Of a stretch of DNA of 64,000 nt, positions 9,771 to 59,991 are shown one piece after another (the first letter of the stretch is position 1; each line of letters opens with the position of its first letter). This DNA is from Gemmatimonadota bacterium (GTDB taxonomy: Bacteria; Gemmatimonadota; Gemmatimonadetes; JACCXV01; JAHWKZ01). Under the pieces are notes generated by a model that had not been told where the DNA came from, did not search any database, and saw only the letters and a list, made by a program, of their open reading frames with translations. The translations under genes were made by a program, and so were the position numbers. The DNA lies in the NCBI GenBank assembly GCA_035708865.1, contig DASTFF010000001.1:4333-68332 (forward strand). Direction: 5' to 3'.

Positions 9771-11677
9771 CCCGCCTTCCCCAGCGTGCGCCGGTTTCCC
9801 TCGCGGCGGGTGATCCCGACCCGGTCGAAGTGCTCGAGGACCGGGATGAGGTACTTGCGGCTGACCTGCAGAGTCTCCTTGCATATCCCGGTGTCGGCCC
9901 CGCCATGGCGCACGATGGCGGCGGTGAGCGCCCCGCGGGCGCGCTCCAGGGCCCCGGCGTCCGCCCACCAGTCGCTGGCCAGCCGGACCAGCCGTCCCTC
10001 GGCCTCCAGGTATCTCAGCACGGCTCGAAGGCGCCCCACCTCGATCCCCAGAACCGCGGCGACGCCGCCGGTCTCGGGCGCCTCGAGCCCCGCCTCCCGA
10101 TAGCGGTCCAGGACGGCCGCCACCAGCCGCTCCGCCTCCGGGTCGAGCTCGGCCGCCCGGCCGGCCTCGGCCAGCGCGGTCCCGCGCCGTTCCAGCGTCC
10201 GCTCGCCGATCAGCGTCTCGATGGCCGACTCGACGAGCGCGGGATCGGCGTCGGGGACCGCCCGCCGGGCGGCGGGCAGCGGCAGTCCGGGCTCGAGCGG
10301 GTGGCTCTGGTGCCGGCGGGCGGTCTCGGCCGCGATCTCCGCCATGACGAGCTGCCGGGCGCCCTGGGGGAACCACCGCCCGCCGTGCCGCTCGACCTCC
10401 TCCCCGGCGGCGATCGCGGTCAGCGACTCCCGGGTCAGACCCGTCTCCACCGGCAGGTCCCGCTCGGCGACCCCCCGCACGCCGGCCAGCCACAGGACCG
10501 CCGCCAGGCGCCCCGGCCCGCGCGCCTCGGCCAGGCTGGCCAGGATCCGCGCGCGCTCGGCGCGCGCGTGGCCGCGGGTCCAGCTCGGCGTCCGCGCCAG
10601 GACCTCCCCGCCGCCGATCGTGGCCACCGGGCTGTAGGACCGCAGCACGAGCCGATCCCCGACCGCGGGGACGACCGGCTTCTCCAGGATCAGGAGCGCC
10701 ATCGACGCGGTGCCGGGTGGAACGGGTTTCGACTCGTACGTCCGGACCCGCGCCATCACCTCCGCAGTCCCGTGATGGACGCGCACCCGATCCCCACTCT
10801 TGAGGGGCCGGGGCGCACGGGCCGCCAGCCAGAGCCTCGCATCCAGCCGCCGCACCGCCTGCCACCCCCCGTCAGGATCGATCAGCATAGCGCCGCGCCG
10901 CAGACCGCCGGCGGAAGGGCCCGTCAGGGCGAGCGCCGCCCGCGACCCTGCGGCCGCCCTCGCCACCGGCCGGCCATGAACCTCCAGCGAGCGGATCCGG
11001 AGCGTGCCTGCGCCGGGATGGACTGCCACCGTCGCACCCTCGGCGACCTCGCCGCTCCAGATCGTTCCGGTCACCACCGTCCCCGCCCCCGCCACGCGGA
11101 ACGCCCGGTCGACCGGCATCCGGAAGGGGAAGCCTACGGGCCGCTCGCCGACCGCTGAGAGGACCGCCGCCAGCGCCGATCGGAGGCGGTCCAGACCGGT
11201 CCCCCGGAGCGCGGAGACGACGACGATCTCGGCCCCGGCGAGCGCTGAGCCCGCGAGGTCCTCGCGCACTGTCTCGACCACCAGCCGGGCCCAGTCGGGC
11301 GTCACCAGGTCGGCCTTGGTCACCGCGACGACGCCCCGCTCCACGCCGAGCGCCTCGAGGACCAGCAGGTGCTCATGGCTCTGCGGCATGAACCCTTCAT
11401 CCGCGGCGACGGTGAACAGCACCGCGTCGATCCCGCTGGCCCCGGCCACCATGGTCCGAATGAACCCCTCGTGCCCCGGGACGTCGACCACGCTCGCCGG
11501 CGGGGCCCCGGGGCCGAGGTCCAGAGGGGCGAAGCCGAGATCGATCGAGATCCCGCGCTCCCGCTCCTCCGGGAGCCGGTCGGTCCACACGCCGGTCAGC
11601 GCCTGGACGAGGGCCGTCTTGCCGTGATCGATGTGGCCGGCCGTGCCGACGACCCTGCGGGACGCGCGGTCGGTCAT
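9767..11677 (-). CDS. selB: Selenocysteine-specific elongation factor SelB
   Basis: GHIDHGKT, DVPGHE and TKAD G-motifs followed by multiple winged-helix domains. ATG at 11677 (MTDRASRRVVGTAGHIDHGKT) overlaps the recO stop (ATGA). The upstream 106 codons of the track ORF are rejected. Confidence 0.9.
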   Translation of the reverse strand: MTDRASRRVVGTAGHIDHGKTALVQALTGVWTDRLPEERERGISIDLGFAPLDLGPGAPPASVVDVPGHEGFIRTMVAGASGIDAVLFTVAADEGFMPQSHEHLLVLEALGVERGVVAVTKADLVTPDWARLVVETVREDLAGSALAGAEIVVVSALRGTGLDRLRSALAAVLSAVGERPVGFPFRMPVDRAFRVAGAGTVVTGTIWSGEVAEGATVAVHPGAGTLRIRSLEVHGRPVARAAAGSRAALALTGPSAGGLRRGAMLIDPDGGWQAVRRLDARLWLAARAPRPLKSGDRVRVHHGTAEVMARVRTYESKPVPPGTASMALLILEKPVVPAVGDRLVLRSYSPVATIGGGEVLARTPSWTRGHARAERARILASLAEARGPGRLAAVLWLAGVRGVAERDLPVETGLTRESLTAIAAGEEVERHGGRWFPQGARQLVMAEIAAETARRHQSHPLEPGLPLPAARRAVPDADPALVESAIETLIGERTLERRGTALAEAGRAAELDPEAERLVAAVLDRYREAGLEAPETGGVAAVLGIEVGRLRAVLRYLEAEGRLVRLASDWWADAGALERARGALTAAIVRHGGADTGICKETLQVSRKYLIPVLEHFDRVGITRREGNRRTLGKAG

Positions 11678-21039: not shown

Positions 21040-21115
<76 letters not shown>

Positions 21116-21168: not shown

Positions 21169-21244
<76 letters not shown>

Positions 21245-29316: not shown

Positions 29317-29403
29317 GCCGGGGTGGCGGAACTGGTAGACGCGCGGGACTTAAAATCCTGTGGGCGAGAGCCCGTGCGGGTTCGACCCCCGCCCCCGGCA
29401 CCA
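29317..29403 (+). tRNA. tRNA-Leu (anticodon TAA), class II with long variable arm
   Basis: 87 nt: gccgggg..GGTAGACGC..cuUAAaa..long variable arm..ttcgacc..ccccggc-a-CCA. Confidence 0.85.
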
Positions 29404-43639: not shown

Positions 43640-43850
43640 GGGACGGAACGAGAAAGACCCCGCCGCGACGCACCGGAGAGGATTTTTTGACGCCCTCGCT
43701 GATACAGTGGGTATCCTGCTCGCCCGATTCTCGCTTCCTCCTGGGAGGCGTGCGATCGGCAGGCGAAACGAGGATCCCTTCGAGTGCGTGTTGGCTCAAA
43801 AAATGGTCTCCCCGGATCCGCGCGAGCGGGGTCTTTCCCGCCCGTTTCGA
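43640..43850 (-). ncRNA. Candidate structured ncRNA, 6S (SsrS)-like architecture; strand assigned by synteny with zapA
   Basis: 260-nt gap between zapA and ymdB with locally lower GC. A 12-bp perfect long-range complement (gaaagaccccgc at 43652-43663 with gcggggtctttc at 43826-43837) encloses ~162 nt. A nested 8-bp complement follows (ttttttga ~43683-43690 with tcaaaaaa ~43796-43803). This gives a rod-like closing stem with internal loops and a ~105-nt central region, and lies downstream of zapA as ssrS does in E. coli. Confidence 0.35.
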
Positions 43851-49872: not shown

Positions 49873-50748
49873 TCAACGCGGCGCGGGCTCCCGGTGGCGG
49901 CCGCGCCGCTCGCGCCAGGCCCGTACCACGCGCGCCAGGTCGCCACCGGCCTCGACCTCGCGGTTCAGCGCGCGCATGCCGGCCTCGTCGAGCGATCCCT
50001 CCAGCCCCGCCAGGACCCCGCCCACCGCCGGGTGCCGCCCGAGCGTCTCCGAGCGCACCACCGGCGCCGCCTGGTACGGCGGAAAGTAGCGGCGGTCGTC
50101 GGCCAGCACTACGAGGTCCAGCGACTCGATGCGGCCGTCGGTCGAGTTGGCGACCGCGACGTCGATCCGGCGCTCCGCGAGAGCCCGGTACATGAGGCCG
50201 AGGTCGAGCTGGAGGATCCGGCCGAACTCGAATCCGTACGCCTTCGCGAGCCCCGGATACCCGTCCTCGCGCGCCATGAACTCGGGGCCGAAGCCGGCCC
50301 TCATCCGCGCCGCGACCGGGCCCAGGTCGGTGATCGTCGCGAGGTCGAGCGATTCGGCGTCGGCCCGCCGGACGACCAGCGCGAACGTGTTCTGGAAACC
50401 CAGCGGGGGCCCCCACTCCAGCCCCCACCGCTCCGCGTACGCGTCGGCGACCTCCCGGAACGCACGCTCCGGTTCCTGGATCGGAGGCCGCTTTAGGATC
50501 GCGGTCAGGGCCGTCCCCGTGTACTCGGGATAGAGATCGATCCCTCCGTTCACGATCGCGCTGTGACAGACGAACGTCCCCCCCAGGTGAAAGCGCCGCT
50601 CGACCGGGACCCCGCGCGCCTCGAGCTCCTGCGCGAGGATCTCTCCGAGGACGTCCTGCTCGGTGAAGTTTTTCGAGCCGATCACGACCGCGTCCGCCGG
50701 ATGGCAGGCGAGGCCGAGAACGAGCAGGGCGGGGAACGCGCGTCTCAC
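49873..50748 (-). CDS. Quaternary-amine (glycine betaine/choline/ergothioneine-type) ABC transporter substrate-binding protein, OpuAC/OpuBC family
   Basis: Signal peptide (V)RRAFPALLVLGLACHPADA, then OpuAC fold (VIGSKNFTEQDVLGEILAQ..YPEYTG). GTG start overlaps the permease TGA (GTGA). The upstream ~174 codons of the track ORF are rejected. Confidence 0.8.
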   Translation of the reverse strand: MRRAFPALLVLGLACHPADAVVIGSKNFTEQDVLGEILAQELEARGVPVERRFHLGGTFVCHSAIVNGGIDLYPEYTGTALTAILKRPPIQEPERAFREVADAYAERWGLEWGPPLGFQNTFALVVRRADAESLDLATITDLGPVAARMRAGFGPEFMAREDGYPGLAKAYGFEFGRILQLDLGLMYRALAERRIDVAVANSTDGRIESLDLVVLADDRRYFPPYQAAPVVRSETLGRHPAVGGVLAGLEGSLDEAGMRALNREVEAGGDLARVVRAWRERRGRHREPAPR

Positions 50749-51416
50749 GCCGGCCGCCGCTCGACGCGCCGGGTCGCGTGCCCGGCGGGAGTGACGCGGC
50801 GCTCGAGCAGCCCGAGCAGCGCGTCGGCGAAGAGCGCCAGCAGGGCCGCCGGCACCGCGCCCGCCAGGATCACCGTGTCGTTCACCATCGCCAGGCCCTG
50901 GAAGATGTACACGCCGAGCCCCCCCGCCCCGATCGCCGCGGCGATCGTCGCGATACCGACCGAGATCACCGTCGCCACGCGGACGCCGGACAGGATGACC
51001 GGCGCCGCCAGCGGGAGCTCGACCCGGCCCAGGAGCTGTCCGCCGGTCATCCCGAGCCCCAGGCCGGCCTCGCGAACGGCGGGATCCACGCCCCGGATCC
51101 CGGCATGCGTCCCGCGGACGACCGGCAGCAGCGCGTACAGCGTGAGCGCCACGATCGCGGTCCGGGCACCGACCCCGCCGATGAACGGGACCGGGATCAG
51201 GAAGCCGAACAGGGCCAGGCTGGGGATCGTCTGGAGGACGTTGGCGGTTCCCATCACCACCCGCTCCCACCGCTGCCAGCGGGTGGCGGCGATCCCCAGC
51301 GGCACGCCCACCGCGACCGCCACCCCAACCGCCAGCGCGACCATCGTGACGTGCTCGAGGGTCAGTCCCGCGGCCTGGCCGGCGTGGTCGCGCAGGTAGC
51401 GAAGAAGCTCACCCAC
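50745..51416 (-). CDS. Quaternary-amine ABC transporter permease (OpuBB/ProW-like)
   Basis: Binding-protein-dependent permease with EAA-like loop and five TM segments. Confidence 0.85.
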   Translation of the reverse strand: MGELLRYLRDHAGQAAGLTLEHVTMVALAVGVAVAVGVPLGIAATRWQRWERVVMGTANVLQTIPSLALFGFLIPVPFIGGVGARTAIVALTLYALLPVVRGTHAGIRGVDPAVREAGLGLGMTGGQLLGRVELPLAAPVILSGVRVATVISVGIATIAAAIGAGGLGVYIFQGLAMVNDTVILAGAVPAALLALFADALLGLLERRVTPAGHATRRVERRPA

Positions 51417-52170
51417 CCGGACCTCCGCCCAGCGCCTCGACCAGCCCGCGGACTTCGGGGTGGCTCGAGGCCAGGAACTCCGCCGGCGGGGCGATCTCCG
51501 CCAGCCCGTCCTCGGTGAGCAGGCCGACCCGGCCGCCCAGCGCGAGCGCCTCGCGCAGGTCGTGGGTGACGAACAGGGCCGCCTTTTCCAGCCGTTGGAC
51601 GAGCTGCCGGAACTCCTGCTGGAGATCGGCCCTCGTCAGGGGATCCAGGGCGCCGAACGGCTCGTCGAGGAGAAGCAGCGGCGGGTCGGCGGCGAGCGCC
51701 CGGGCCACCCCTACCCGCTGCCGCTGGCCGCCCGAGAGCTCGTGCGGGTAACGCCGGCCGAACTCGCCGGCCGGCAGCCCCACCAGCTCGAGGAGCTCGG
51801 CCGTCCGCTCATCGATCCGGATCCGCTCCCATCCCAGCAGGTCCGGCACCAGACCCACGTTGCCGGCCACCGTGAGGTGCGGGAACAGCCCGACCTCCTG
51901 GATCACGTAACCGGTCCGCCGTCGCAGCGCCACGGGGTCCCAGTCGGTCGTGGGGCGCCCGGCGACGCGGACTACTCCCGCTGCCGGATCGAGGAGCCGG
52001 TTCACCAGCTTGAGGAGGGTCGTCTTGCCGACCCCCGAGCGGCCCACGAGGACAACCGTCTCGTCGGTCCCGACGGCCAGCGTGAGGCCCGCGAACAGGA
52101 CGCGCCCGTCGGGGAGCGAGAACGCCACTTGGTCGAACTCGACCGCCGGGGCCGCGGAGTCCGCCGACAA
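51409..52170 (-). CDS. Quaternary-amine ABC transporter ATP-binding protein (OpuBA/ProV-like)
   Basis: Walker A GRSGVGKTT, signature LSGGQRQRV and Walker B LLLDEP. TTG start at 52168-52170. Confidence 0.9.
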   Translation of the reverse strand: MSADSAAPAVEFDQVAFSLPDGRVLFAGLTLAVGTDETVVLVGRSGVGKTTLLKLVNRLLDPAAGVVRVAGRPTTDWDPVALRRRTGYVIQEVGLFPHLTVAGNVGLVPDLLGWERIRIDERTAELLELVGLPAGEFGRRYPHELSGGQRQRVGVARALAADPPLLLLDEPFGALDPLTRADLQQEFRQLVQRLEKAALFVTHDLREALALGGRVGLLTEDGLAEIAPPAEFLASSHPEVRGLVEALGGGPGG

Positions 52171-52221
52171 CGAAGCGGGTGGGGGGTTCGCGTACGACGA
52201 TGAGCCATGCTGAGCGATCCG

Positions 52222-52229
52222 TTAATATA
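52222..52229 (+). promoter_or_regulatory. Candidate -10 element (TAATAT) 8 nt upstream of the egtDB ATG (leaderless / very short leader)
   Basis: cgttaatatagggccccATG; no SD is present. A divergent 66-bp intergenic region is shared with the ABC transporter operon. Confidence 0.3.
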
Positions 52230-52236
52230 GGGCCCC

Positions 52237-54588
52237 ATGGCGGGCACCACCCGACCGGTCGCCCTCCCGGCGGCCGACCTTCGAGCCCCCGCCTTCGTCG
52301 AACGTGCCGGCGAGGGCTGGGTGGTGTTCGTCGATGCGACGCCCACCACCGCCGAGGCATTCGCCCACTCCGTCGCGCGCGGGCTCTCGGACCATCCCCG
52401 ATGGCTTCATTGCAGGTATCTCTACGACGAAACCGGGGGCGAGCTGTTCGGGCGGATCACCGAGCAGCCCGAATACTACCTGACACGGGCGGAGACCGAG
52501 ATCCTCGCGCGCCAGTCGGACGCGATCCGCGCGGCCGCGGGACCGGTGCCCCTCGTCGAGCTGGGCGCCGGCATGGCGATCAAGACCCGCCATCTGCTCG
52601 CGGCGTGGGACCGGGCCGGTGGGCCGGTCGAGTACGTCCCCGTGGACATCGACGCGTCCGTACTTACCGCGGCCGCCCAACGGCTGGCGGAGGAGTTTCC
52701 GGGGATCACGATCACCGGCCTAGCGACCTCGTACGAGCGCGGCCTGGACCTGATCGAAGGGCGCTCCCCGCTGTGTCTCGTCTTTCTGGGCTCGACGATC
52801 GGCAACTTCAATCCCGAGGAGACCGACGCCTTCCTGACCCGGCTCCGGGATGCCCTTTCGCCCGGGGACCGGCTGCTGCTGGGCGTCGACCTGGTCAAGC
52901 CGGTCGAGGAACTCGAGGCCGCCTACAACGATGCCGCCGGCGTGAGCCGCGAGTTCACCCGCAACCTCTTCCAGCGGATGAACCGGGACCTGGGCACCGC
53001 GATCCCGCTGGAAGCGATCGACCACGTCGCTTACTGGAACGACCGCCTCGAGCGGATCGAGATCTACGCCCAGGCACGGCGCGCCGTGAACGTAGAGCTG
53101 GCCTCGATCCAGCGGCGTTTTCGCATCGCGGCCGGCGAGATGGTCCTCACCGAGATCAGTCGCAAGTATCGGCTCGACGGCGTCGAGTCGGACTTCGCGC
53201 GGTTCGGTTTCAAGCTGGAACAGTCGTTCACCGACTCCGGCAGCCGGTTCGGTCTGCTCCTCTTCCGGCTCATCGATCCCGGCGCACGGCCGGACCAGGT
53301 GACCCGTCTGGCGGCAACGCTGCAGCGGGTACGCCGCCGTACGCTCGAGCTGATCGACGCGCTCGACGACGAGCGGCTCCGGCGGCAGGAGCTTTCGATC
53401 CTGAGCCCGATCGCGTGGGACCTCGGCCACATCGCCGAGTTCGAGGAGCTGTGGCTCGTGGATACGATCGACGCGCTGCTGACCGGCGGCGATCCATCCC
53501 GACTGTCTCCCGAATACGACGCCATCCGGACACCGCGGAGCGAGCGTGGCCATCTCCCGTTTCCCGCGCGGGGGGAGATCCTGGAGCGGCTCGAGCGCGT
53601 CCGGAAGGAGGCCCTGCGCCGGCTGCGCGCCATCGATCTGGCGGGCCATCCGCTCCTCGAACACGGGTTCGTCTACCACCTCCTGGCACAGCACGAGGCG
53701 CAGCACCAGGAGACGTTCCTGCAGGCGATCGCGCGGATGGCGGACCTGGCCTACGAGCCCGCTTTCCGCGAGCCCACCCCGCGCCCCTCGCTCCCGCCCG
53801 ATACCGACATGGTCCTCGTCGGCGAGGGTCCGTTTCCGGTCGGCGCCGCGCGCATCGCGGAGGCCTACGACAACGAGCGGCCGGTGACCCGGGTCGACGT
53901 GGACGCCTTCTGGATCGACGCCGCCCCGGTCACCAACGGCGTCTACCTCGCGTTCATGGAGGCCGGTGGCTACGAGCGCCGCGACGCGTGGAGCGACGAG
54001 GGATGGGCGTGGCGGGAGAAACACGCCGTCCGGTACCCGCTCGGCTGGCGGCGGGACGAGGGCGGCTGGGTCGACGTCCAGTTCGGCCACGTCGAGCCGC
54101 TCGTCCCCGCGCGGCCGGTCCAGCACGTCTCGTGGTACGAGGCCGACGCCTGCGCGCGCTGGCTGGGCAAGCGGCTCCCGACCGAGATCGAGTGGGAGAA
54201 GGCCGCGGCCTGGGATCCCGAGGTCCGGGTCCCGCGGCGCTACCCGTGGGGAGACGCCCAGCCCGACGCGCGCTGCGCCAACCTGGACGCCCGCACGTTC
54301 GCGCCGGCTCCCGTAGGTGCGTATCCGCGCGGCCGATCCTTCTACGGCTGCCATCAGATGCTGGGCGATGTCTGGGAGTGGACGGCGAGCGAGTTCCTTC
54401 CCTATCCCGGCTTCGAGGCGTTCCCCTACCCGGAGTACTCGGAGGCCCACTTCGGCAAGGGGTACCGGGTGCTGCGCGGCGGCTCGTGGGCGACCGCCGC
54501 GATCGTGGCGCGCAACTCGTTCCGTAACTGGGACCTTCCCGAGCGCCGCCAGATCTTTGCCGGGTTCCGCTGCGCCCGGGACGCGTGA
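52237..54588 (+). CDS. egtDB: Fused ergothioneine biosynthesis protein: EgtD-type L-histidine N-alpha-methyltransferase plus EgtB-type sulfoxide synthase (DinB_2 + FGE-sulfatase domains); Egt1-like architecture
   Basis: N-terminal 330 aa carry EgtD/Methyltransf_33 motifs (EYYLTRAETEIL, LVELGAGMAIKTRHLL, YVPVDIDASVL, FLGSTIGNF). C-terminal ~450 aa carry a DinB_2 region with an HLLAQHEAQHQETF iron-binding motif, then an FGE-sulfatase domain (GDVWEWT, RGGSWAT). Confidence 0.85.
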   Translation: MAGTTRPVALPAADLRAPAFVERAGEGWVVFVDATPTTAEAFAHSVARGLSDHPRWLHCRYLYDETGGELFGRITEQPEYYLTRAETEILARQSDAIRAAAGPVPLVELGAGMAIKTRHLLAAWDRAGGPVEYVPVDIDASVLTAAAQRLAEEFPGITITGLATSYERGLDLIEGRSPLCLVFLGSTIGNFNPEETDAFLTRLRDALSPGDRLLLGVDLVKPVEELEAAYNDAAGVSREFTRNLFQRMNRDLGTAIPLEAIDHVAYWNDRLERIEIYAQARRAVNVELASIQRRFRIAAGEMVLTEISRKYRLDGVESDFARFGFKLEQSFTDSGSRFGLLLFRLIDPGARPDQVTRLAATLQRVRRRTLELIDALDDERLRRQELSILSPIAWDLGHIAEFEELWLVDTIDALLTGGDPSRLSPEYDAIRTPRSERGHLPFPARGEILERLERVRKEALRRLRAIDLAGHPLLEHGFVYHLLAQHEAQHQETFLQAIARMADLAYEPAFREPTPRPSLPPDTDMVLVGEGPFPVGAARIAEAYDNERPVTRVDVDAFWIDAAPVTNGVYLAFMEAGGYERRDAWSDEGWAWREKHAVRYPLGWRRDEGGWVDVQFGHVEPLVPARPVQHVSWYEADACARWLGKRLPTEIEWEKAAAWDPEVRVPRRYPWGDAQPDARCANLDARTFAPAPVGAYPRGRSFYGCHQMLGDVWEWTASEFLPYPGFEAFPYPEYSEAHFGKGYRVLRGGSWATAAIVARNSFRNWDLPERRQIFAGFRCARDA

Positions 54589-54589
54589 G

Positions 54590-55603
54590 GTGAGCGGGCC
54601 GGCCGGGCCGGGCGACCTGGCGCGGCGGCTGGCCCGCCTGCCACTGGAGATCGAGAGCCATTCGGTCGAGCTGGGCTCCGTCCCGCTGGCCGGCTACTAC
54701 GACGGCGCCGAGCGCCCGACCGGGGTGGTCGGGATGGCCGGCCGGGGCCACGTCGGCCGCGGGGAAAACGTCGACTGGACACCGGCCGGGCAGGAGCGGT
54801 TCGCGGCCGTCTGCCGGGAGGTGGTCCAGGACGCCCTCCCGGCGGGGCCGACCACGCTGGGGGCGGTCGGTGCGGCGCTCACCCGCTCGCGTGCCCATCC
54901 CCACCACCGGGCGGCCCTCGAGGCGGCGGCCCTCGATCTCGCGCTCCGGCTGGCCGGTCTCGACCTCTTCCAGCTGAGCGGTCGGCAGCCCCGGGCGGTC
55001 CGCACCTGCCGCTCGATCGGCCGGGAGGAGATCGCCCGGGCGGGACCCCTGACCGCGGTCCTGGCCCTTCTCGCCCGCGAGCCGGACGCCCGGGTCAAGA
55101 TCGACGGCCCCGCCGGTGGATGGCCCGAGGACCTGTGGAGACGGCTGGCCGGGACGGGGCGGGTGGTCGTCGTCGACTTCAAGCGCGAGGGGACGGCCGA
55201 GCAGGTCGCGCTCGCCCACCGCTTCCTGCCCGGCGCCTGGATCGAGGACCCGCCCGCCGACCTCCTCGGACAGGCGGGGGCCGGGTCCTGGCTCTCACGC
55301 CTCGCGCTGGACGGGTACGTGGCGGCGGCTTCCGACCTCGACGCGCCGCCGGCCCCGCCGGCCGCCGTCAACGTGAAGCCCGCCCGGGTCGGGGGTCCCT
55401 GCGAGGCGCTGGCGATCCTCGAGCGGTGCCGGAGCTCGGGTTGGAGCGCCTACTTCGGCGGGATGTTCGAGGTCGACGTGGGCCGGCGGCAAGCGCAGGT
55501 CTTGGCTTCGCTGTTCACGGCCGGGGCGTGGAACGATCTGGCCCCGCTCACCGGGCCGTCCGGCCAGGACGGCGTTCCGGCCGGGGGGCCGGGGTTCGGC
55601 TGA
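54590..55603 (+). CDS. Enolase-superfamily enzyme, MLE subgroup (OSBS/dipeptide-epimerase/NSAR-like)
   Basis: Metal ligands and base in canonical order: VKIDGPAGGW (D), WIEDP (E), LALDGY (D), AAVNVKPARVGG (K). GTG start 2 nt after the egtDB TGA. The first 91 codons of track ORF 54317..55603 overlap egtDB and are rejected. Confidence 0.7.
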   Translation: MSGPAGPGDLARRLARLPLEIESHSVELGSVPLAGYYDGAERPTGVVGMAGRGHVGRGENVDWTPAGQERFAAVCREVVQDALPAGPTTLGAVGAALTRSRAHPHHRAALEAAALDLALRLAGLDLFQLSGRQPRAVRTCRSIGREEIARAGPLTAVLALLAREPDARVKIDGPAGGWPEDLWRRLAGTGRVVVVDFKREGTAEQVALAHRFLPGAWIEDPPADLLGQAGAGSWLSRLALDGYVAAASDLDAPPAPPAAVNVKPARVGGPCEALAILERCRSSGWSAYFGGMFEVDVGRRQAQVLASLFTAGAWNDLAPLTGPSGQDGVPAGGPGFG

Positions 55604-55625: not shown

Positions 55626-57200
55626 TCACCCGCGGCGCGCGAGGATCGCGGCCGCCGCCAGGCGTCCGGAGACGCCGGTGACCGCGCCCGCCGGGTGGGT
55701 GCCCGGGCCGCACAGGTAGAGCCCTTCGATGGGGGTCCCATACCGGCCCCAGCCGGGCACCGGGCGCATGAAGAGGAGCTGGTCGAGCGCCAGCTCCCCG
55801 TGGTGGGGATCCCCGCGGGTCAGTCGGTAGCGCGTCTCGAGGTCGGCCGGCGTCAGGACCCGCCTTTCGAGGATCGCCCCGGGGAGGTTGGGGGCGTGCT
55901 CGGCGAGTAGCTCGACCACGCGGTCCCCCATCGCGCCGGCCAGATCGGGCTCGGGAGCCGGGTGGTCTCCGAGCGGGACGAAACGTGCGTCGATCGACAT
56001 CACGTGCCGACCGGAAGGGGCCACCGAGGGGTCGGCGAGCGACGGGATACGCGCCTCCAGTACGGGGCGCCCCGACATCCGTCCGTGCTTGGCGTCATCG
56101 TACGCCCGCTCCACCGCATCCAGCTCCGGCGCGATCACCAGCGACCCCTGCGGTTCCACGTCGAGGCCTTCGAACCGCGGCGCCTCGGCCAGCGCCAGGT
56201 GGACTCGGACATAGCCGCCGCGGAAGCGGATCTGCCGGACCGCGTGGACGAAGTCGGGATCCAGGTGCCGGGCGCCCGTGAGGTCGAGAAAGGTGCGCGC
56301 GGGGTCCGCTCCCGACAGGACCCATCCGGCCGCGATCACCTCTCCGCCGTCCAGCGACACGCCGACCGCGCGACCCTCCTCGACCTCGATCGCGGCCACC
56401 TCCGCCCCGCACCGGACCTGGACCCCGCGCTCCTTCGCAGCCGCCGTCAGCGCCGCCGCGAGCGCGCCCACTCCCCCCCGCACCACGGTGCGCGGGCCGA
56501 ACGTCCCGGCCGGGCTTCCGACCTGGCGGTGGAGGAGCGCCAGCGACGTGCCCGGCGAGCGCGGGCCCTGGAAGACCCCGCGCACCGACAGCGCTCCCAG
56601 CGCGCCCTTCAGTAGATCGTTTTCGAAGCAGTCGTCGAGGAGATCGTAGGCGGGAAGCGGAAGCACGCGGAGCAGCTCGATCATCCGTGACCGTCCGAGC
56701 GAGCGGATCCGGCGGCCGACGCCGAAATACGGAAGCATCTCGCGGAGCGGCCCCGCCGGCCGGGCGGGGGGCCGCATCGCGACCGCCTCGAGGATACCCG
56801 AGAACGAAGCGATCCGGCCGGCGAACCCCATCCACCGCTCGGCGTCGCGGGGCGAACGTCTGGCGATCGAGGCGCGCGTCGCTTGCGGGTCGCGCCACAG
56901 GACCAGGGGCTCCCCGCCCGCCGCCGGGGCGGCGAGAACGGGATCGGGTCGTAGCTCGGCCAGGCCGTGCCTGGCGAGCCCCAGCCCGTTGACGATCGCC
57001 GGAGGCAGGTGGCCGGCGTCCGGGTGGACGGGGTCGATGCGGAAGCCGGGCAGGATCTCCTCGGAGGCGGCCTGCCCGCCCGGGACCTCGCCCGGCTCGA
57101 GCACCGTCACGCCCAGTCCCGCCTGCGCCAGCTCGAGGGCCGCGACCAGCTCCTCGATGCCGGATCCGATCACGACCACGTCCCGCCGGCCCCCGCTCAC
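55626..57200 (-). CDS. CrtI/phytoene-desaturase-family FAD-dependent oxidoreductase (paralog B)
   Basis: FAD dinucleotide motif VVVIGSGIEELVAALELAQAGLGVTVLE and C-terminal GLYLCGPGTHPAGAVTGVSG. GTG start overlaps the paralog A TGA (GTGA). The upstream ~548 codons of the track ORF are rejected. Confidence 0.75.
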   Translation of the reverse strand: MSGGRRDVVVIGSGIEELVAALELAQAGLGVTVLEPGEVPGGQAASEEILPGFRIDPVHPDAGHLPPAIVNGLGLARHGLAELRPDPVLAAPAAGGEPLVLWRDPQATRASIARRSPRDAERWMGFAGRIASFSGILEAVAMRPPARPAGPLREMLPYFGVGRRIRSLGRSRMIELLRVLPLPAYDLLDDCFENDLLKGALGALSVRGVFQGPRSPGTSLALLHRQVGSPAGTFGPRTVVRGGVGALAAALTAAAKERGVQVRCGAEVAAIEVEEGRAVGVSLDGGEVIAAGWVLSGADPARTFLDLTGARHLDPDFVHAVRQIRFRGGYVRVHLALAEAPRFEGLDVEPQGSLVIAPELDAVERAYDDAKHGRMSGRPVLEARIPSLADPSVAPSGRHVMSIDARFVPLGDHPAPEPDLAGAMGDRVVELLAEHAPNLPGAILERRVLTPADLETRYRLTRGDPHHGELALDQLLFMRPVPGWGRYGTPIEGLYLCGPGTHPAGAVTGVSGRLAAAAILARRG

Positions 57201-58795
57201 CACCTCCCGCCCCCCTGCGCGAGGACGGCGCGCGCCGCCAGGTGGCCGCTCGCGCCCATGACCCCACCACCCGGGTGCGTCCCCGAGCCGCACTGGTAGT
57301 AGCCGCGAATGGGAGTCGTGTGGCCGGCCCACGCCGGAGCCGGCCTCAGGAAGAAGAGCTGGCTCAGCGCCAGCTCGCCCTGGAAGATGTTCCCCTCCGA
57401 GAGCCCCGTTACGGTCTCGATGTCGGCCGGCGTGATCACCTGGCGATGGAGGATGGCGGAGCGGACGTTGGGCGCGTACTCGGCCAGAGTGTCGATCACC
57501 GCGTCGCCGAACGCCTCGCGGCTCCGGTCGTCCCAACCCCCGTTCCGGTGATACGGAGCGTATTGGACGAAGATCGACATGACGTGCTTCCCCGGCGGCG
57601 CCATGCCGGGATCGATGAGCGACGGGATCACGATGTCGAGGAAGGGACGGCGGGAGAACTCGCCGTACTTGGCGTCGTCGTAGGCGCGCTCGAGGTAGTC
57701 CACCCCGGGCGCGATTGCGATCGCCCCCCGCAGGTGGGGCCCGTCGCCGGGAAGCGCCGTGAAGTCGGGCGGCTCGGACAGCGCCAGGTTGACCTTGCCC
57801 GACGAACCGCGGAAGCGGAACCGCCGGACGGCCTCCACGAGCTCGTCGGGGAGCTCCGCCGGCTCGACCAGCTCGAGGAACGTGCGCCGCGGATCGAGAC
57901 CCGAGATCACGGCCCGCGCGCGGATCTCCTCCCCATCGTCCAGGACCACTCCCGCCGCCCGTCCGTTCTCGACGAGGACCTGCCGGACAGGGGCGTCGGT
58001 CCGGATCTCGGCCCCGAAGCTCCGCGCCGCTGAAGCGATGGCATCGCTGACCGCGCCGGTCCCGCCACGGGCGAACCCCCAGGCCCGGAACACCCCGTCG
58101 ATCTCCCCCATGTAGTGATGGAGGAGGACGTAGGCCGTTCCCGGCGAGCGGGGTCCGAGGAAGGTCCCGATGATGCCGCTCGCCGACTTGGCCGCCTTGA
58201 GAGGCTCGCTCTCGAACCATTCCGCCAGGTAATCCGCCGAACTCATCGTCATGAGCTTGACGAGCGCGTGGAGGTCCCGCTCGCCGAGGCCGCGGAAATG
58301 CCGTGCCAGCCGGCCCATCGCCAGGAGATCCCGCGGCCGCCATGAGGCGGGGTCGGGTGGCGAGACGCTCAGCAGCGGCTTGACCGCCATCGCCATCCGC
58401 TGCATGAGCCGGCCGAACTCCAGGTACGCGTCGGCGTCGCGCGGAGAATGGCGGTACAGCTCGCGCCGCGTCGCGTCGGGGTCGGCCCACGTCGCCAGAT
58501 AGTCGCCGTCCGGGAGTGGGTTGAACGTGCTCTCGAGCGGAACGATGTGAAGACCGTGGCCGGGCAAATCGAGGTCGCGGATAATCTCCGGCCGGAGCAG
58601 GCTCACGACGTACGAGAAGACCGAGAAGCGGAAGCCCGGGAACACCTCCTCGGTGACCGCCGCTCCCCCCACCACCGGACGGCGCTCGAGGACCAGGACC
58701 CGGCGGCCGGCACGGGCGAGATACGCCGCGCAGACGAGGCCGTTGTGGCCCCCGCCCACCACCACGTCGTCCCAAACCGCGGCGGGCGACGTCAC
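57197..58795 (-). CDS. CrtI/phytoene-desaturase-family FAD-dependent oxidoreductase (paralog A)
   Basis: VVVGGGHNGLVCAAYLARAGRRVLVLE FAD motif and C-terminal GYYQCGSGTHPGGGVMGASG. GTG start overlaps the gcvT-like TGA (GTGA). Confidence 0.75.
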   Translation of the reverse strand: MTSPAAVWDDVVVGGGHNGLVCAAYLARAGRRVLVLERRPVVGGAAVTEEVFPGFRFSVFSYVVSLLRPEIIRDLDLPGHGLHIVPLESTFNPLPDGDYLATWADPDATRRELYRHSPRDADAYLEFGRLMQRMAMAVKPLLSVSPPDPASWRPRDLLAMGRLARHFRGLGERDLHALVKLMTMSSADYLAEWFESEPLKAAKSASGIIGTFLGPRSPGTAYVLLHHYMGEIDGVFRAWGFARGGTGAVSDAIASAARSFGAEIRTDAPVRQVLVENGRAAGVVLDDGEEIRARAVISGLDPRRTFLELVEPAELPDELVEAVRRFRFRGSSGKVNLALSEPPDFTALPGDGPHLRGAIAIAPGVDYLERAYDDAKYGEFSRRPFLDIVIPSLIDPGMAPPGKHVMSIFVQYAPYHRNGGWDDRSREAFGDAVIDTLAEYAPNVRSAILHRQVITPADIETVTGLSEGNIFQGELALSQLFFLRPAPAWAGHTTPIRGYYQCGSGTHPGGGVMGASGHLAARAVLAQGGGRW

Positions 58796-59991
58796 GCGCG
58801 CTTGCGCCCGGGTTCGAAGAACGGCGTCTCGACGACGGTCGCACGGGCCCTCTTCCGGCGATGCTCGATCGTCATCTCGAGCGCGACGTCCGTTCCAGGC
58901 TCGGCATGCGAGGCCGGGACGTGACTCAAGGCGATGTACTTCTTGAGGAGCGGCGACCAGCAGCCGCTGGTCGCGTACCCCACCTGCTCGCCCCCGTCGT
59001 AGACCGGCGTGCTCGTCCGCCAGGCGGTGGTCGGGAGCTGGGGCGGGAGCCCGACCTCGGAGAACAGCGCCTCCAGCGAGTCCCACTCCACGATCAGGCC
59101 GCGCAAGGCCCACGTCGAGCCGCGCTCGCGCTCCGCCTCGAGCGCCGCCTGGCCGACGAAGCGCGATTTCGCGCGGGCCACCGTCCACCCCAGGCCGAGC
59201 TCGAAGGGGGACGACTTCTGGGTTTCGATGAGGGCCCGCCGCGCCGAGACATAGTCGACGTCGATCAGCAGCAGCCCGGCCTCGATCCGCGCGACGTCCA
59301 TCGCCAGAAGGCCGGTCGGCAGCAGGCCCGCGGGCGCGCCGGCCGCGACGAGGAGGTCCCACAGCGCCTCGGCCCGTCCATTGGCGACCCAGATCTCGTA
59401 CCCCAGGTCACCGGTGTAGCCGGTGCGCGTCACGGTGACCGGGATCCCTCCCAGACACGCCTCCGCGGCGCGGAAGAAGCGCAGCCCCGTCAGGTCGGTG
59501 TCGGCGACACCCGTCAGGATCTCGCGGGCCGCCGGCCCCTGGAGGGACAGGGCGGCCGTCGCGGCGGTCTCGTCCTCGATCGCGACGTTCATCCCGACCG
59601 CGTTCTGGTGGAGCCAGCGCAGGTTGGGGTGGGCGGACGTCATGCGGAACCGGTCCTCCTCGAGCCGCGCCACCGTTCCGTCGTCGATCACCTTCCCCTC
59701 GGGGTCGCACCACGGCGTGTACAGGACCTGCCCCACCGCGCAGCGGGCCACGTCCCGGGTCACGATCCGGTCCAGGAGCGCGGCCGCGTCCGGCCCCCGG
59801 ATCCGGTACTTGAACAGCGGGGTCACGTCGATCAGCGCGGCGGTGCCACGGATGGCCGCATACTCCAGATCGTGGACCAGGTCGTATGAGGACGCCACCA
59901 CGTAGCCGGCCCAGCGGCGCCAGGCATGGCCGCGCACGAGCGCCGCAGTGCGGGAATGGAAGGGAGTGGTCCTCAGCCCGTGGATGGTCAT
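58792..59991 (-). CDS. GcvT-family aminomethyltransferase (folate-binding; glycine-cleavage T-protein-like)
   Basis: ALIDVTPLFKYRIRGPDA (compare DVSHMGK..GPDA), RTGYTGDLGYEIW and a C-terminal barrel. No gcvH or gcvP nearby. Confidence 0.8.
   Translation of the reverse strand: MTIHGLRTTPFHSRTAALVRGHAWRRWAGYVVASSYDLVHDLEYAAIRGTAALIDVTPLFKYRIRGPDAAALLDRIVTRDVARCAVGQVLYTPWCDPEGKVIDDGTVARLEEDRFRMTSAHPNLRWLHQNAVGMNVAIEDETAATAALSLQGPAAREILTGVADTDLTGLRFFRAAEACLGGIPVTVTRTGYTGDLGYEIWVANGRAEALWDLLVAAGAPAGLLPTGLLAMDVARIEAGLLLIDVDYVSARRALIETQKSSPFELGLGWTVARAKSRFVGQAALEAERERGSTWALRGLIVEWDSLEALFSEVGLPPQLPTTAWRTSTPVYDGGEQVGYATSGCWSPLLKKYIALSHVPASHAEPGTDVALEMTIEHRRKRARATVVETPFFEPGRKRA

What the first reader, a model, noticed from the sequence alone, without database searches (positions are those of the whole stretch)
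52237..54588. Single-polypeptide EgtD-EgtB fusion (fungal Egt1-like) in a bacterium
A 783-aa ORF carries the EgtD histidine-betaine methyltransferase motifs N-terminally. It is fused in-frame to a DinB_2 + FGE-sulfatase sulfoxide-synthase module with the HxxxHxE iron site. In most bacteria egtD and egtB are separate genes inside egtABCDE. The D-B fusion order is the architecture of fungal Egt1, which uses cysteine directly and bypasses EgtA/EgtC. No egtA, egtC or egtE homolog is visible in the 64 kb.
Basis: partly seen in the sequence, partly recalled or inferred. Interest (0 to 1): 0.7.

Follow-up and report, generated by a model that had tools for sequence, protein, structure and literature searches.

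The report
Bacterial EgtD-EgtB fusion with enolase-like partner
A soil-type bacterium (Gemmatimonadota) makes the first two ergothioneine enzymes as one protein, built independently of the similar fungal enzyme, and this gene is always followed by an uncharacterised enolase-family gene that may supply a missing later step of the pathway.

Summary
Window 52237-54588 (+) is one 783-aa ORF with Methyltransf_33 (EgtD), DinB_2 and FGE-sulfatase (EgtB) domains, and both NCBIfam equivalog cut-offs are passed. It is not a frameshift: all 120 listed homologs, from many assemblies, share the architecture. The 64 kb holds no egtA, egtC or egtE.

The 'fungal Egt1-like, cysteine-using' reading is only partly supported. 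The domain order matches Egt1, but the EgtB module is bacterial type I. It is 48-54% identical to stand-alone type I EgtBs and 23-29% to fungal Egt1. It matches the published EgtB-I composite motif exactly, including Arg87, Arg90, Asp416 and Arg420, which fungal, type II and type IV enzymes lack. The fusion is therefore convergent, and gamma-glutamylcysteine is the likelier sulfur donor.

One nucleotide after the stop begins a DUF8230 gene (54590-55603), a divergent NSAR/OSBS-like enolase-superfamily enzyme with one catalytic lysine replaced by Asp. It accompanies all 12 inspected fusions with an intact EgtB-I site, none of 4 fusions with a degenerate or type II site, and none of 76 unfused loci. 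I propose, as inference, that it processes the sulfoxide product, possibly as a PLP-independent C-S lyase.

The parts
52237..54588 (+). egtD-egtB fusion gene (783 aa): bifunctional histidine N-alpha-trimethyltransferase / type I hercynine sulfoxide synthase
   Evidence: ORF; Pfam and NCBIfam domain hits; identical protein in NCBI and on 6 contigs
52363..53268 (+). EgtD module (residues 43-344, Methyltransf_33), including the SAM-binding E108-L-G-x-G112...K116-T117 stretch
   Evidence: Pfam 5e-98; TIGR03438 309 bits > 290.9; PDB EgtD 4uy7/4pim E 1e-67; residues invariant in 46 clade members
53320..53715 (+). DinB_2 domain of the EgtB module (residues 362-493) carrying Fe ligands H398, H486, H490 and R434/R437 (= MthEgtB His51, His134, His138, Arg87, Arg90)
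   Evidence: Pfam; residue mapping on 4x8b alignment; invariance
53803..54579 (+). FGE-sulfatase (C-type lectin fold) domain of the EgtB module (residues 523-781) with Y731 (= Tyr377), Y734 (= Tyr380) and N764-W765-D766...R770 (= Trp415, Asp416, Arg420)
   Evidence: Pfam 3e-61; 4x8b alignment; composite motif comparison
54590..55603 (+). DUF8230 gene (337 aa), GTG start 1 nt after the fusion's TGA: divergent enolase-superfamily (MLE subgroup, NSAR/OSBS-like) enzyme. It has metal ligands D196/E219/D241 and catalytic K263 and R266, but K170-x-D172 in place of the KxK motif. Proposed partner enzyme of the fusion
   Evidence: Sequence junction; PF26684/PF26685; PDB sequence hits NAAAR/NSAR/OSBS; AF2 model pLDDT 93.2; Foldseek TM ~0.73 to NAAAR/dipeptide epimerase/NSAR; invariant residues; co-occurrence 12/12 vs 0/80
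52171..52236 (.). 66-bp divergent intergenic region between the ABC transporter operon and the fusion gene (presumed promoters; inferred only)
   Evidence: Sequence; no sigma-70 consensus match and no Rfam element
49873..52170 (-). Betaine-type ABC transporter operon (ATPase 51409-52170, permease 50745-51416, OpuAC-family binding protein 49873-50748). Possible accessory (uptake of a quaternary-amine compound such as a betaine, hercynine or ergothioneine); ligand undetermined
   Evidence: Pfam/NCBIfam; PDB OpuBC/OpuCC 1e-55 to 1e-48, EgtUC 6e-43; the same trio lies next to fused (L004, L005, L085) and unfused (L025, L027, L030, L034, L046, L063, L081) egt genes in Gemmatimonadota

Best explanation
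The ORF encodes a bifunctional bacterial enzyme. The N-terminal EgtD module trimethylates L-histidine with SAM to give hercynine. The C-terminal type I EgtB module (non-haem Fe, O2) then joins a thiol to C2 of hercynine to give a sulfoxide. The fusion arose within bacterial type I EgtB/EgtD lineages, once for this clade, independently of fungal Egt1 and of other bacterial D-B fusions built on type II or type IV modules. Because the whole MthEgtB thiol-binding set is retained, the sulfur donor is most likely gamma-glutamylcysteine taken from the cell's pool. The fusion forms a conserved, translationally coupled two-gene cassette with a DUF8230 enolase-superfamily enzyme. I infer that this partner acts on the sulfoxide product. 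Its single conserved base (K263, the lysine that faces L-configured substrates in NSAR), working with Mg2+, would abstract the alpha-proton of the cysteinyl moiety, which is an N-acyl amino acid much like NSAR's N-succinyl substrates. The hercynyl sulfenate would then leave by beta-elimination and be reduced to ergothioneine. This would replace the PLP lyase EgtE and, if it accepts the gamma-glutamyl conjugate, EgtC as well. Shown here: the architecture, the typing, the independent origin and the co-occurrence. Inferred: the thiol donor and the chemistry of the partner. Sub-probabilities: bifunctional EgtD/EgtB about 0.9; independent bacterial origin about 0.9; functional coupling with DUF8230 about 0.8; gamma-Glu-Cys donor about 0.6; C-S beta-lyase chemistry about 0.35.
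For: Domains and equivalog scores. Type I assignment: 4x8b E 1e-102; exact EgtB-I composite motif, invariant in 46 clade members. Independent origin: fused sequences form one clade in NJ trees of both halves (EgtD 200/200, EgtB 175/200 bootstraps), nested among bacterial type I sequences; fungal Egt1 is only 23-29% identical in the EgtB half and 28-35% in the EgtD half and has a different motif; other bacterial D-B fusions carry type II (6o6l E 1e-145) or EgtB-IV-like modules (8vih 3e-65). Cassette: stop and start are 1 nt apart. DUF8230 lies directly downstream of the fusion in the window, L004, L005, L007, L084, L085, L086, L087, L091, L092 and L093, and 3.7 kb downstream in L006; four of these were reached from the DUF8230 side and the other neighbours differ between loci. 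It is absent from 76 unfused egtB loci and from 4 fusions whose EgtB site is degenerate (L088, L094) or type II (L089, L090). DUF8230 is an MLE-subgroup enolase-superfamily protein: profile vs 1sja E 2e-20 and 1wue 6e-22; model pLDDT 93; Foldseek TM ~0.73. Metal ligands plus K263 and R266 are conserved, and the K163 equivalent is an invariant Asp. That argues against a two-base racemase and for a one-base (lyase-type) reaction; the link from residue pattern to reaction type rests on established knowledge of the superfamily, recalled. No EgtA, EgtC or EgtE-type domains occur in the window or in any of the cassette neighbourhoods.
Against: No biochemical data exist for either protein. Many unfused type I egtB-egtD operons (about 35 loci) also lack a linked egtC or egtE and have no DUF8230, so unlinked canonical genes could serve here too; whole genomes could not be inspected. 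From memory (not verified here), some cyanobacterial type I-like EgtBs use cysteine, so the motif may not fix the donor. No enolase-superfamily C-S lyase is known to me. The replacement of K163 by Asp has no characterised precedent that I could cite. In L006 the two genes are separated by three unrelated genes. Co-occurrence partly reflects shared ancestry within one clade, although the neighbourhoods are otherwise unrelated and identity falls to 40%.
Confidence: 0.55

Rival explanations
1. One reading: a fungal Egt1-type enzyme that uses free cysteine directly, so that EgtA and EgtC are unnecessary and only a C-S lyase is needed.
For: Same D-B domain order as Egt1; no egtA or egtC in 64 kb. 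Many bacteria with only egtB and egtD are thought to use cysteine (PMC7278568).
Against: The EgtB module is type I, not the fungal or type IV kind. It retains Arg87, Arg90, Asp416 and Arg420, and the latter two are lost in all three cysteine-using classes examined (types II, III, IV). It is only 23-29% identical to fungal Egt1.
Confidence: 0.15
2. The fusion is an ordinary type I EgtD+EgtB pair. DUF8230 is functionally linked but is not a C-S lyase. It might be an epimerase or racemase, or an enzyme that modifies hercynine, the sulfoxide or ergothioneine, possibly giving a different end product.
For: Its nearest structural relatives are racemases and epimerases acting on N-acyl amino acids and dipeptides. 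Enolase-superfamily betaine epimerases next to betaine transporters are known (recalled, not verified here), and a betaine-type transporter is adjacent.
Against: Two-base racemisation needs both K163 and K263; here the K163 equivalent is an invariant Asp. The partner is lost exactly when the sulfoxide synthase site is lost, which ties it to that product and not to hercynine.
Confidence: 0.22
3. The DUF8230 adjacency is inherited synteny without functional coupling. Later steps are done by unlinked EgtC/EgtE or by generic PLP lyases.
For: All cassette loci belong to one clade of fusion proteins. About 35 unfused egtB-egtD loci manage without any linked partner.
Against: The pair is the only conserved element in otherwise unrelated neighbourhoods across several lineages (Gemmatimonadota, Binatia, a 'Deltaproteobacteria' MAG and others) down to 40% identity. 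Stop and start overlap or are separated by 1-12 nt at most loci. The partner is absent from the two close relatives with degenerate EgtB sites.
Confidence: 0.07
4. A selenoneine (SenA-type) or other non-ergothioneine sulfoxide/selenoxide synthase fused to EgtD.
For: The SenA model gives a high partial score (342.8 bits). The organism has SelB.
Against: The score is below the SenA cut-off of 420. The SenA motif replaces Arg87 with His and Asp416 with Phe/Tyr, and both are retained here. No senB or senC lies nearby.
Confidence: 0.01
5. Sequencing or assembly artefact (two genes joined by a frameshift).
For: None found.
Against: An identical ORF occurs on 6 independent contigs. At least 120 homolog clusters of 760-860 aa from many projects share the same architecture. 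The linker region is colinear in alignments.
Confidence: 0

Closest known systems
Fungal Egt1 (type III sulfoxide synthase fused to EgtD; N. crassa, S. pombe, A. fumigatus EgtA)
   Same: A single polypeptide with the EgtD module N-terminal and the DinB_2 + FGE-sulfatase sulfoxide synthase C-terminal. Encoded without egtA or egtC. Works with one further enzyme.
   Different: Not homologous as a fusion. The EgtB half is 23-29% identical and the EgtD half 28-35%. The fungal thiol-site motif is (H/N)YH..H(M/L)H-YY-NW(Y/F)-Y, against SDH-RR-HQH-YY-NWD-R here. Egt1 prefers cysteine (62-fold, as cited in PMC13547098). The fungal partner is the PLP lyase Egt2, whereas here the partner is an enolase-superfamily protein.
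Mycobacterial EgtD and type I EgtB of the egtABCDE cluster (M. smegmatis EgtD 4pim; M. thermoresistibile EgtB 4x8b)
   Same: Closest solved relatives of both halves (E 1e-67 and 1e-102). All Fe, hercynine, thiol and catalytic-Tyr positions are identical. Both NCBIfam equivalog cut-offs are passed.
   Different: There the two are separate genes in the order B-(C)-D, with egtA, egtC and egtE alongside. Here they form one polypeptide in the order D-B, so the fusion is not a simple read-through of neighbouring genes, and egtA/C/E are not linked.
Other bacterial EgtD-EgtB fusions (Acidiferrobacterales and Planctomycetota type II fusions; EgtB-IV-like fusions; reverse-order B-D fusions)
   Same: Single-polypeptide EgtD + EgtB in bacteria. 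They are present in public databases under plain 'EgtB' or 'EgtD' names.
   Different: Different EgtB subfamily or different domain order. The ones inspected have no DUF8230 partner.
N-succinylamino acid racemase / o-succinylbenzoate synthase (Amycolatopsis NSAR/OSBS 1sja; Thermus and Deinococcus NAAAR) and dipeptide epimerases, MLE subgroup of the enolase superfamily
   Same: Same fold (TM ~0.73). Same metal ligands (D189/E214/D239 equivalents), K263 and R266. Their substrates are N-acyl amino acids or dipeptides deprotonated at the C-terminal alpha-carbon, which resembles gamma-Glu-Cys conjugates.
   Different: Only ~20-25% identity. Far below the OSBS equivalog cut-off (32.9 vs 200.65 bits). 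The KxK motif is KxD (K163 to Asp, invariant). Its genomic context is ergothioneine genes, not menaquinone or D-amino-acid salvage.
EgtE / Egt2 (PLP-dependent hercynylcysteine sulfoxide C-S lyases) and EgtC (amidohydrolase)
   Same: They occupy the pathway position I propose for DUF8230, directly after the sulfoxide synthase.
   Different: Unrelated folds and cofactors. No homolog of either lies in the window or in any cassette neighbourhood.

Membership tests
EgtD (L-histidine N-alpha-methyltransferase, TIGR03438 / Methyltransf_33) | Scores above the curated equivalog cut-off and better than for non-EgtD Methyltransf_33 families | tested here: met
   TIGR03438 309 bits vs cut-off 290.9; EasF family 166.3 vs 205.55; Pfam 5e-98; PDB EgtD E 1e-67
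EgtD (L-histidine N-alpha-methyltransferase, TIGR03438 / Methyltransf_33) | Trimethylation of histidine to hercynine | not testable with these tools
   Needs an enzyme assay
EgtB type I (EgtB-I sulfoxide synthase) | DinB_2 + FGE-sulfatase fold with a 3-His Fe site and catalytic Tyr377 | tested here: met
   Pfam; H398/H486/H490 and Y731 aligned to His51/His134/His138/Tyr377 of 4x8b; TIGR03440 384 bits vs 360
EgtB type I (EgtB-I sulfoxide synthase) | Composite active-site motif xSDH--RRHQHYYNWDR (bioRxiv 10.1101/2024.04.10.588772) | tested here: met
   All 14 specified positions match (S390 D395 H398 R434 R437 H486 Q489 H490 Y731 Y734 N764 W765 D766 R770). 13 are invariant and S390 >=90% conserved in 46 clade members
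EgtB type I (EgtB-I sulfoxide synthase) | gamma-Glutamylcysteine as sulfur donor | not testable with these tools
   Only inferred from retained Arg87/Arg90/Asp416/Arg420 equivalents
Fungal Egt1 (type III) | Single polypeptide, EgtD N-terminal to the sulfoxide synthase | tested here: met
Fungal Egt1 (type III) | Sulfoxide synthase module of the fungal kind (sequence kinship and active-site pattern) | tested here: not met
   23-29% identity and 58-99 bits to nine fungal Egt1 proteins, against 48-54% and 366-405 bits to bacterial type I; fungal motif (H/N)YH..H(M/L)HYYNW(Y/F)Y
Fungal Egt1 (type III) | Cysteine as sulfur donor; PLP lyase Egt2 as partner | not testable with these tools
   The donor needs an assay. 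No Aminotran_5 or other PLP lyase domain in the window, but the rest of the genome was not available
Mycobacterial egtABCDE cluster | egtA, egtC and egtE adjacent to egtB and egtD | tested here: not met
   None in 64 kb; the actinomycete loci show the B-C-D arrangement for contrast
SenA (selenoneine synthase) | NF041186 cut-off; motif with His at Arg87 and Phe/Tyr at Asp416; senB/senC neighbours | tested here: not met
   342.8 bits < 420; Arg and Asp retained; no senB/senC
Enolase superfamily, MLE subgroup (for the DUF8230 partner) | Capping domain + modified TIM barrel fold with three carboxylate metal ligands on successive barrel strands | tested here: met
   Model pLDDT 93.2; Foldseek TM ~0.73, E 1e-15 to NAAAR, dipeptide epimerase, NSAR and MLE; D196/E219/D241 align to D189/E214/D239 of 1sja and are invariant
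Enolase superfamily, MLE subgroup (for the DUF8230 partner) | KxK motif on strand 2 and a Lys on strand 6 as the acid/base pair | tested here: not met
   K263 is present, but the motif is K170-x-D172; the K163 equivalent is an invariant Asp
NSAR/OSBS isofunctional family (MenC) | Scores as an o-succinylbenzoate synthase equivalog | tested here: not met
   TIGR01928 32.9 bits vs cut-off 200.65
EgtUV ergothioneine ABC transporter (for the neighbouring transporter) | Subcluster F-III binding domain with the ergothioneine specificity determinants (Y-to-F switch, G244; PMC9732360) | not tested
   Family-level similarity only: EgtUC E 6e-43, weaker than OpuBC/OpuCC at 1e-55 to 1e-48. Here the binding protein and permease are separate genes, not fused as in EgtU

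The most novel reading that the evidence does not exclude
DUF8230 is a new kind of C-S lyase: a Mg2+-dependent, PLP-independent enolase-superfamily enzyme that beta-eliminates hercynyl sulfenate directly from S-(hercyn-2-yl)-gamma-glutamylcysteine S-oxide (or from the cysteine conjugate). The two-gene cassette (EgtD-EgtB-I fusion + DUF8230) would then be a complete, previously unrecognised bacterial route from histidine to ergothioneine that replaces both EgtC and EgtE.
Probability: 0.3. Interest if true: 0.8.

Novelty: new variant of a known kind. Interest (0 to 1): 0.62.

Why it matters
Ergothioneine is a widely studied antioxidant with commercial production efforts, and textbook accounts describe the fused Egt1 enzyme as a fungal feature. 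This locus shows that bacteria built the same architecture independently on a type I (gamma-glutamylcysteine-type) scaffold. Across bacteria the fusion arose several times on different EgtB subfamilies. More importantly, the strict pairing with an uncharacterised enolase-superfamily gene gives a concrete, cheaply testable candidate for the step after sulfoxide formation. How that step is carried out is unclear in many bacteria that have egtB and egtD but lack linked egtC and egtE genes. If the partner is a PLP-independent C-S lyase, that would add a new reaction type to the enolase superfamily. It would also offer a compact two-gene cassette for engineering ergothioneine production in hosts that already make gamma-glutamylcysteine.

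Tried and rejected
- **Frameshift artefact:** rejected.
- **SenA/selenoneine reading:** rejected on score and motif.
- **Search for egtA/C/E in the window:** nothing found by Pfam over essentially all called genes.
- **Promoter, terminator and Rfam scans around the cassette:** nothing informative.
- **Local Pfam copy:** it has no DUF8230 model, so the partner gave 0 families. NCBIfam gave only sub-threshold OSBS and DgcA hits.
- **First NJ/bootstrap script:** timed out; redone with my own NJ code.
- **AFDB fold search of the fusion model:** not possible, library not installed. The fusion model (pLDDT 79.9) was therefore not used. Fungal Egt1 sequences were obtained through a homology search from P0269 instead.
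- **Genes between the fusion and DUF8230 in L006** (GSDH and two unknowns): uninformative.
- **'All D-B fusions have the partner':** rejected. Type II fusions and the two degenerate relatives lack it.
- **EgtU specificity residues of the binding protein:** not checked.
- **Literature:** no paper in the searchable library mentions DUF8230, or ergothioneine together with the enolase superfamily or succinylbenzoate. The two papers holding 'ergothioneine' and 'mandelate racemase' are unrelated. I did not find natural bacterial EgtD-EgtB fusions discussed in the papers I read: a 2026 review treats natural fusion only for fungal Egt1. Subscription-journal papers were not searchable, so prior mention elsewhere cannot be excluded.


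Full report
**1. Observation**

The window (about 70% G+C) contains the ORF exactly as described: 52237-54588 on the + strand, ATG start, 783 aa. Pfam finds Methyltransf_33 at residues 43-344 (E 5e-98), DinB_2 at 362-493 and FGE-sulfatase at 523-781. The NCBIfam equivalog models for EgtB (384 bits, cut-off 360) and EgtD (309 bits, cut-off 290.9) are both passed. The EasF-type methyltransferase and SenA models are not.

An identical protein is deposited at NCBI from a Gemmatimonadota MAG under the name 'ergothioneine biosynthesis protein EgtB', and the same ORF occurs on six independently assembled contigs. All 120 listed homolog clusters (54-100% identity, about 760-860 aa) have the same three domains in one polypeptide. 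The fusion is real and not a frameshift artefact.

**2. The rest of the window**

I called genes from the strong third-position G+C bias. I scanned essentially all of them against Pfam and combined that with precomputed annotation of matching contigs. The 60 genes are housekeeping: DnaB, CoaBC, SelB, RecO, MgtE, Lon, RecN, DXS, RecQ, FolD, PheST, IF3, ThrRS and so on. There is no glutamate-cysteine ligase, no class-II amidotransferase and no PLP-dependent C-S lyase.

**3. What kind of EgtB it is**

Against solved structures, the C-terminal half is far closer to the type I enzyme of M. thermoresistibile than to other classes:

| Solved relative | Class | E-value |
|---|---|---|
| 4x8b | type I | 1e-102 |
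| 6o6l / 6qki | type II | 1e-47 |
| 8k5i | SenA | 1e-42 |
| 8vih | EgtB-IV | 1e-34 |

In the residue-level alignment (chain index = published number + 1) the following are conserved: the Fe ligands His51/His134/His138, catalytic Tyr377, and Arg87, Arg90, Tyr380, Trp415, Asp416 and Arg420. PMC4768315 lists the latter six as the putative residues binding MthEgtB's two substrates, trimethylhistidine and gamma-glutamylcysteine. The SenA preprint calls Arg87/Asp416 the thiol-binding pair that SenA replaces.

The ovoselenol preprint defines composite motifs for each subfamily. The window protein reads S390 D395 H398 R434 R437 H486 Q489 H490 Y731 Y734 N764 W765 D766 R770, an exact EgtB-I motif. Thirteen of these positions are invariant and S390 is at least 90% conserved in 46 members of the fusion clade.

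**4. Comparison with fungal Egt1**

A homology search seeded with a distant fusion returned named fungal proteins, among them 'Ergothioneine biosynthesis protein 1' of Lasiodiplodia and proteins from Mortierella, Glomus and chytrids. Results:

| Compared with | EgtB-half identity | EgtB-half bits | EgtD-half identity |
|---|---|---|---|
| Nine fungal Egt1 proteins | 23-29% | 58-99 | 28-35% |
| Stand-alone bacterial type I EgtBs | 48-54% | 366-405 | not applicable |

At the motif positions fungal Egt1 reads (H/N)YH..H(M/L)H-YY-NW(Y/F)-Y, the pattern of the EgtB-IV / OvoA-like branch. It has no equivalents of Arg87, Arg90, Asp416 or Arg420. The shared domain order is therefore convergent. All three cysteine-using classes examined (II, III, IV) lack Asp416 and Arg420, and the window protein keeps them. 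On that basis gamma-glutamylcysteine is the more likely donor. This is an inference. From memory, some cyanobacterial type I-like enzymes use cysteine, so an assay is needed.

**5. How common the fusion is and how it arose**

A scan of one genome per GTDB species returned 80 loci. ORF analysis sorted them as follows:

- **True single-ORF D-B fusions:** four loci (two Gemmatimonadota, one Ca. Binatia, one 'Deltaproteobacteria' MAG).
- **Separate egtB then egtD, 15-130 nt apart:** about 35 loci, including most Gemmatimonadales.
- **egtB-egtC-egtD:** the Actinomycetota loci.

Because the usual bacterial gene order is B then D, the D-B fusion is not a simple stop-codon loss between neighbours. In neighbour-joining trees the fused sequences form one clade in both halves (EgtD 200/200 and EgtB 175/200 bootstraps). 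This clade is nested among bacterial type I sequences, which points to one fusion event for this clade.

The exhaustive search of 1.8 billion cluster representatives and follow-up show other, independent fusions:

- D-B fusions on type II modules (Acidiferrobacterales, Planctomycetota).
- D-B fusions on EgtB-IV-like modules.
- Reverse-order B-D fusions.

The architecture is thus recurrent in bacteria and is present in databases under plain EgtB or EgtD names. I found no discussion of natural bacterial fusions in the papers I read. A 2026 review treats natural fusion as a fungal feature.

**6. The conserved partner**

The fusion's TGA (54586-54588) is followed after one nucleotide by the GTG of a 337-aa ORF (54590-55603), annotated DUF8230_N/DUF8230_C.

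*Fold and residues.* The partner is a divergent enolase-superfamily protein:

- Single-sequence PDB hits are to N-acylamino-acid racemases (E 2e-7).
- A 31-sequence profile reaches E 6e-22 and 2e-20 against 1wue and Amycolatopsis NSAR/OSBS 1sja.
- The AlphaFold model is confident (pLDDT 93.2) and superposes on NAAAR, dipeptide epimerases, NSAR/OSBS and muconate-lactonizing enzymes with TM about 0.73.

The alignment to 1sja maps the invariant residues as follows:

| DUF8230 | 1sja (NSAR/OSBS) | Note |
|---|---|---|
| D196, E219, D241 | D189, E214, D239 | metal ligands |
| K263 | K263 | strand-6 lysine |
| R266 | R266 | |
| K170 | K161 | first Lys of the KxK motif |
| D172 | K163 | Lys replaced by an invariant Asp |

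It is far below the OSBS equivalog threshold.

*Co-occurrence.* The numbers are striking:

- Starting from fusion proteins, DUF8230 is directly downstream in the window, L004, L005, L007, L084, L085 and L093.
- Starting from distant DUF8230 proteins (41-46% identical), the gene directly upstream is always a fusion: L086, L087, L091, L092.
- In the Binatia locus L006 a profile search finds the partner 3.7 kb downstream, truncated by the contig end.
- The other neighbours differ between loci, so the pair is the conserved unit.

A profile search of all fetched loci, combined with motif typing, gives:

| Locus class | With DUF8230 |
|---|---|
| D-B fusions with an intact EgtB-I motif | 12 of 12 |
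| D-B fusions with another active site | 0 of 4 |
| Unfused egtB loci | 0 of 76 |

The four fusions without the partner are two close relatives whose site has decayed and two type II fusions. P0243/L088 has lost the His triad. P0242/L094 keeps the triad but has lost both tyrosines and the W-D-R thiol site. Counting only loci ascertained from the fusion side, and before the L006 profile hit, Fisher's exact p was 2e-8.

**7. Proposed mechanism**

*Shown:* a bifunctional EgtD/EgtB-I protein in a translationally coupled, evolutionarily conserved cassette with an MLE-subgroup enolase-superfamily enzyme, whose retention tracks the integrity of the sulfoxide synthase site.

*Inferred:*

- The EgtD module makes hercynine.
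- The EgtB-I module couples hercynine to gamma-glutamylcysteine from the cellular pool, giving the sulfoxide.
- DUF8230 then acts on that product.

Enolase-superfamily enzymes abstract the alpha-proton of a carboxylate substrate with Mg2+ stabilisation. NSAR and dipeptide epimerases do this at the C-terminal residue of N-acyl amino acids and dipeptides. N-succinyl closely resembles N-gamma-glutamyl. With only one of the two opposed lysines retained, a racemase is unlikely. A one-base elimination is plausible: loss of the sulfenate from the beta-carbon of the cysteinyl residue would release ergothioneine after reduction, with pyruvate plus glutamine or ammonia as by-products. This part rests on established knowledge of the superfamily (recalled) and on inference, and I put it at about 0.35. 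Alternatives are an epimerase or modifying role, or no functional link at all. No paper in the searchable library connects ergothioneine with the enolase superfamily or mentions DUF8230.

**8. Surroundings**

Divergently upstream lies a betaine-type ABC transporter:

| Component | Coordinates (- strand) |
|---|---|
| ATPase | 51409-52170 |
| Permease | 50745-51416 |
| OpuAC-family binding protein | 49873-50748 |

Homologous trios lie next to both fused and unfused egt genes in Gemmatimonadota. The binding protein belongs to the OpuBC/OpuCC/EgtUC group. Its ligand is undetermined, and an ergothioneine or hercynine transporter is possible. I found no riboswitch or consensus promoter in the 66-bp intergenic region.

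**9. Verdict**

The fusion itself is a new variant of a known kind. It is recurrent in bacteria and already sits in sequence databases without comment. The conserved DUF8230 partner is the element worth experimental follow-up.

Noticed in passing
window 49873-52170 (-); also L004, L005, L085, L025, L027, L030, L034, L046, L063, L081: A betaine-type ABC transporter (ProV-like ATPase, permease, OpuAC-family binding protein) sits next to ergothioneine genes in many Gemmatimonadota loci, fused and unfused alike. The binding protein is in the same subcluster as the ergothioneine-binding EgtUC (E 6e-43) but scores higher to OpuBC/OpuCC. It could import or recapture ergothioneine or hercynine.
   Followed up: partly
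L094 8001-11032 (protein P0242, GCA_029261875.1): A 52%-identical relative of the fusion keeps the Fe-binding His triad but has lost both active-site tyrosines and the Trp-Asp-Arg thiol site. Instead of DUF8230, a 253-aa glyoxalase-fold (VOC) gene overlaps its 3' end. This may be a neofunctionalised non-haem iron enzyme with a different partner.
   Followed up: partly
L088 2260-4584 (protein P0243, Acidobacteriota MAG): A D-B fusion whose EgtB module has lost all three Fe-binding histidines while the EgtD half stays well conserved (65 of 70 clade-invariant residues). It is probably a hercynine synthase with a dead C-terminal domain.
   Followed up: partly
proteins P0338 (1271 aa) and P0415 (1008 aa): Proteins combining Methyltransf_33, an Aminotran_1_2 (PLP) domain and FGE-sulfatase in one chain. 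These may be whole ergothioneine pathways (methyltransferase + sulfoxide synthase + PLP lyase) fused into a single polypeptide.
   Followed up: no
proteins P0245, P0277, P0298-P0300, P0304 and others: Reverse-order EgtB-EgtD fusions (EgtB N-terminal) of about 740-785 aa also exist, as expected from read-through of the common egtB-egtD gene order.
   Followed up: no
L006 9549-9971, L085 9588-10004, L092 2641-3069; L085 13232-13705, L092 6981-7469: A HIT-domain gene lies directly upstream of the fusion in three loci. A PNPOx-like (FMN split-barrel) gene directly follows DUF8230 in two loci. Either could be an accessory, for example in sulfenate reduction, or merely inherited synteny.
   Followed up: no
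window 43653-43835 (-): 6S RNA (Rfam RF00013, 56.3 bits, above gathering score), lying between the YmdB-like gene and the ZapA gene.
   Followed up: no
window 21040-21112, 21170-21241, 29317-29400 (+): Three tRNA genes (Rfam RF00005). The first two are in tandem, and the third lies just upstream of the lon gene on the opposite strand.
   Followed up: no
window 9767-11677 (-): A SelB (selenocysteine-specific elongation factor) gene, so this Gemmatimonadota organism decodes selenocysteine.
   Followed up: no
window 55626-58795 (-) and 58792-59991 (-): Two tandem CrtI/CrtO-like FAD oxidoreductases (best NCBIfam match beta-carotene ketolase CrtO, far below cut-off), followed by a GCV_T-family aminomethyltransferase. 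They converge on the DUF8230 gene. They are not conserved next to the cassette in other loci.
   Followed up: partly
window 54590-55603: The local Pfam-A copy returns no family for this protein, whereas the precomputed annotation lists PF26684/PF26685 (DUF8230_N/C). The family is evidently very recent in Pfam and has no literature.
   Followed up: yes
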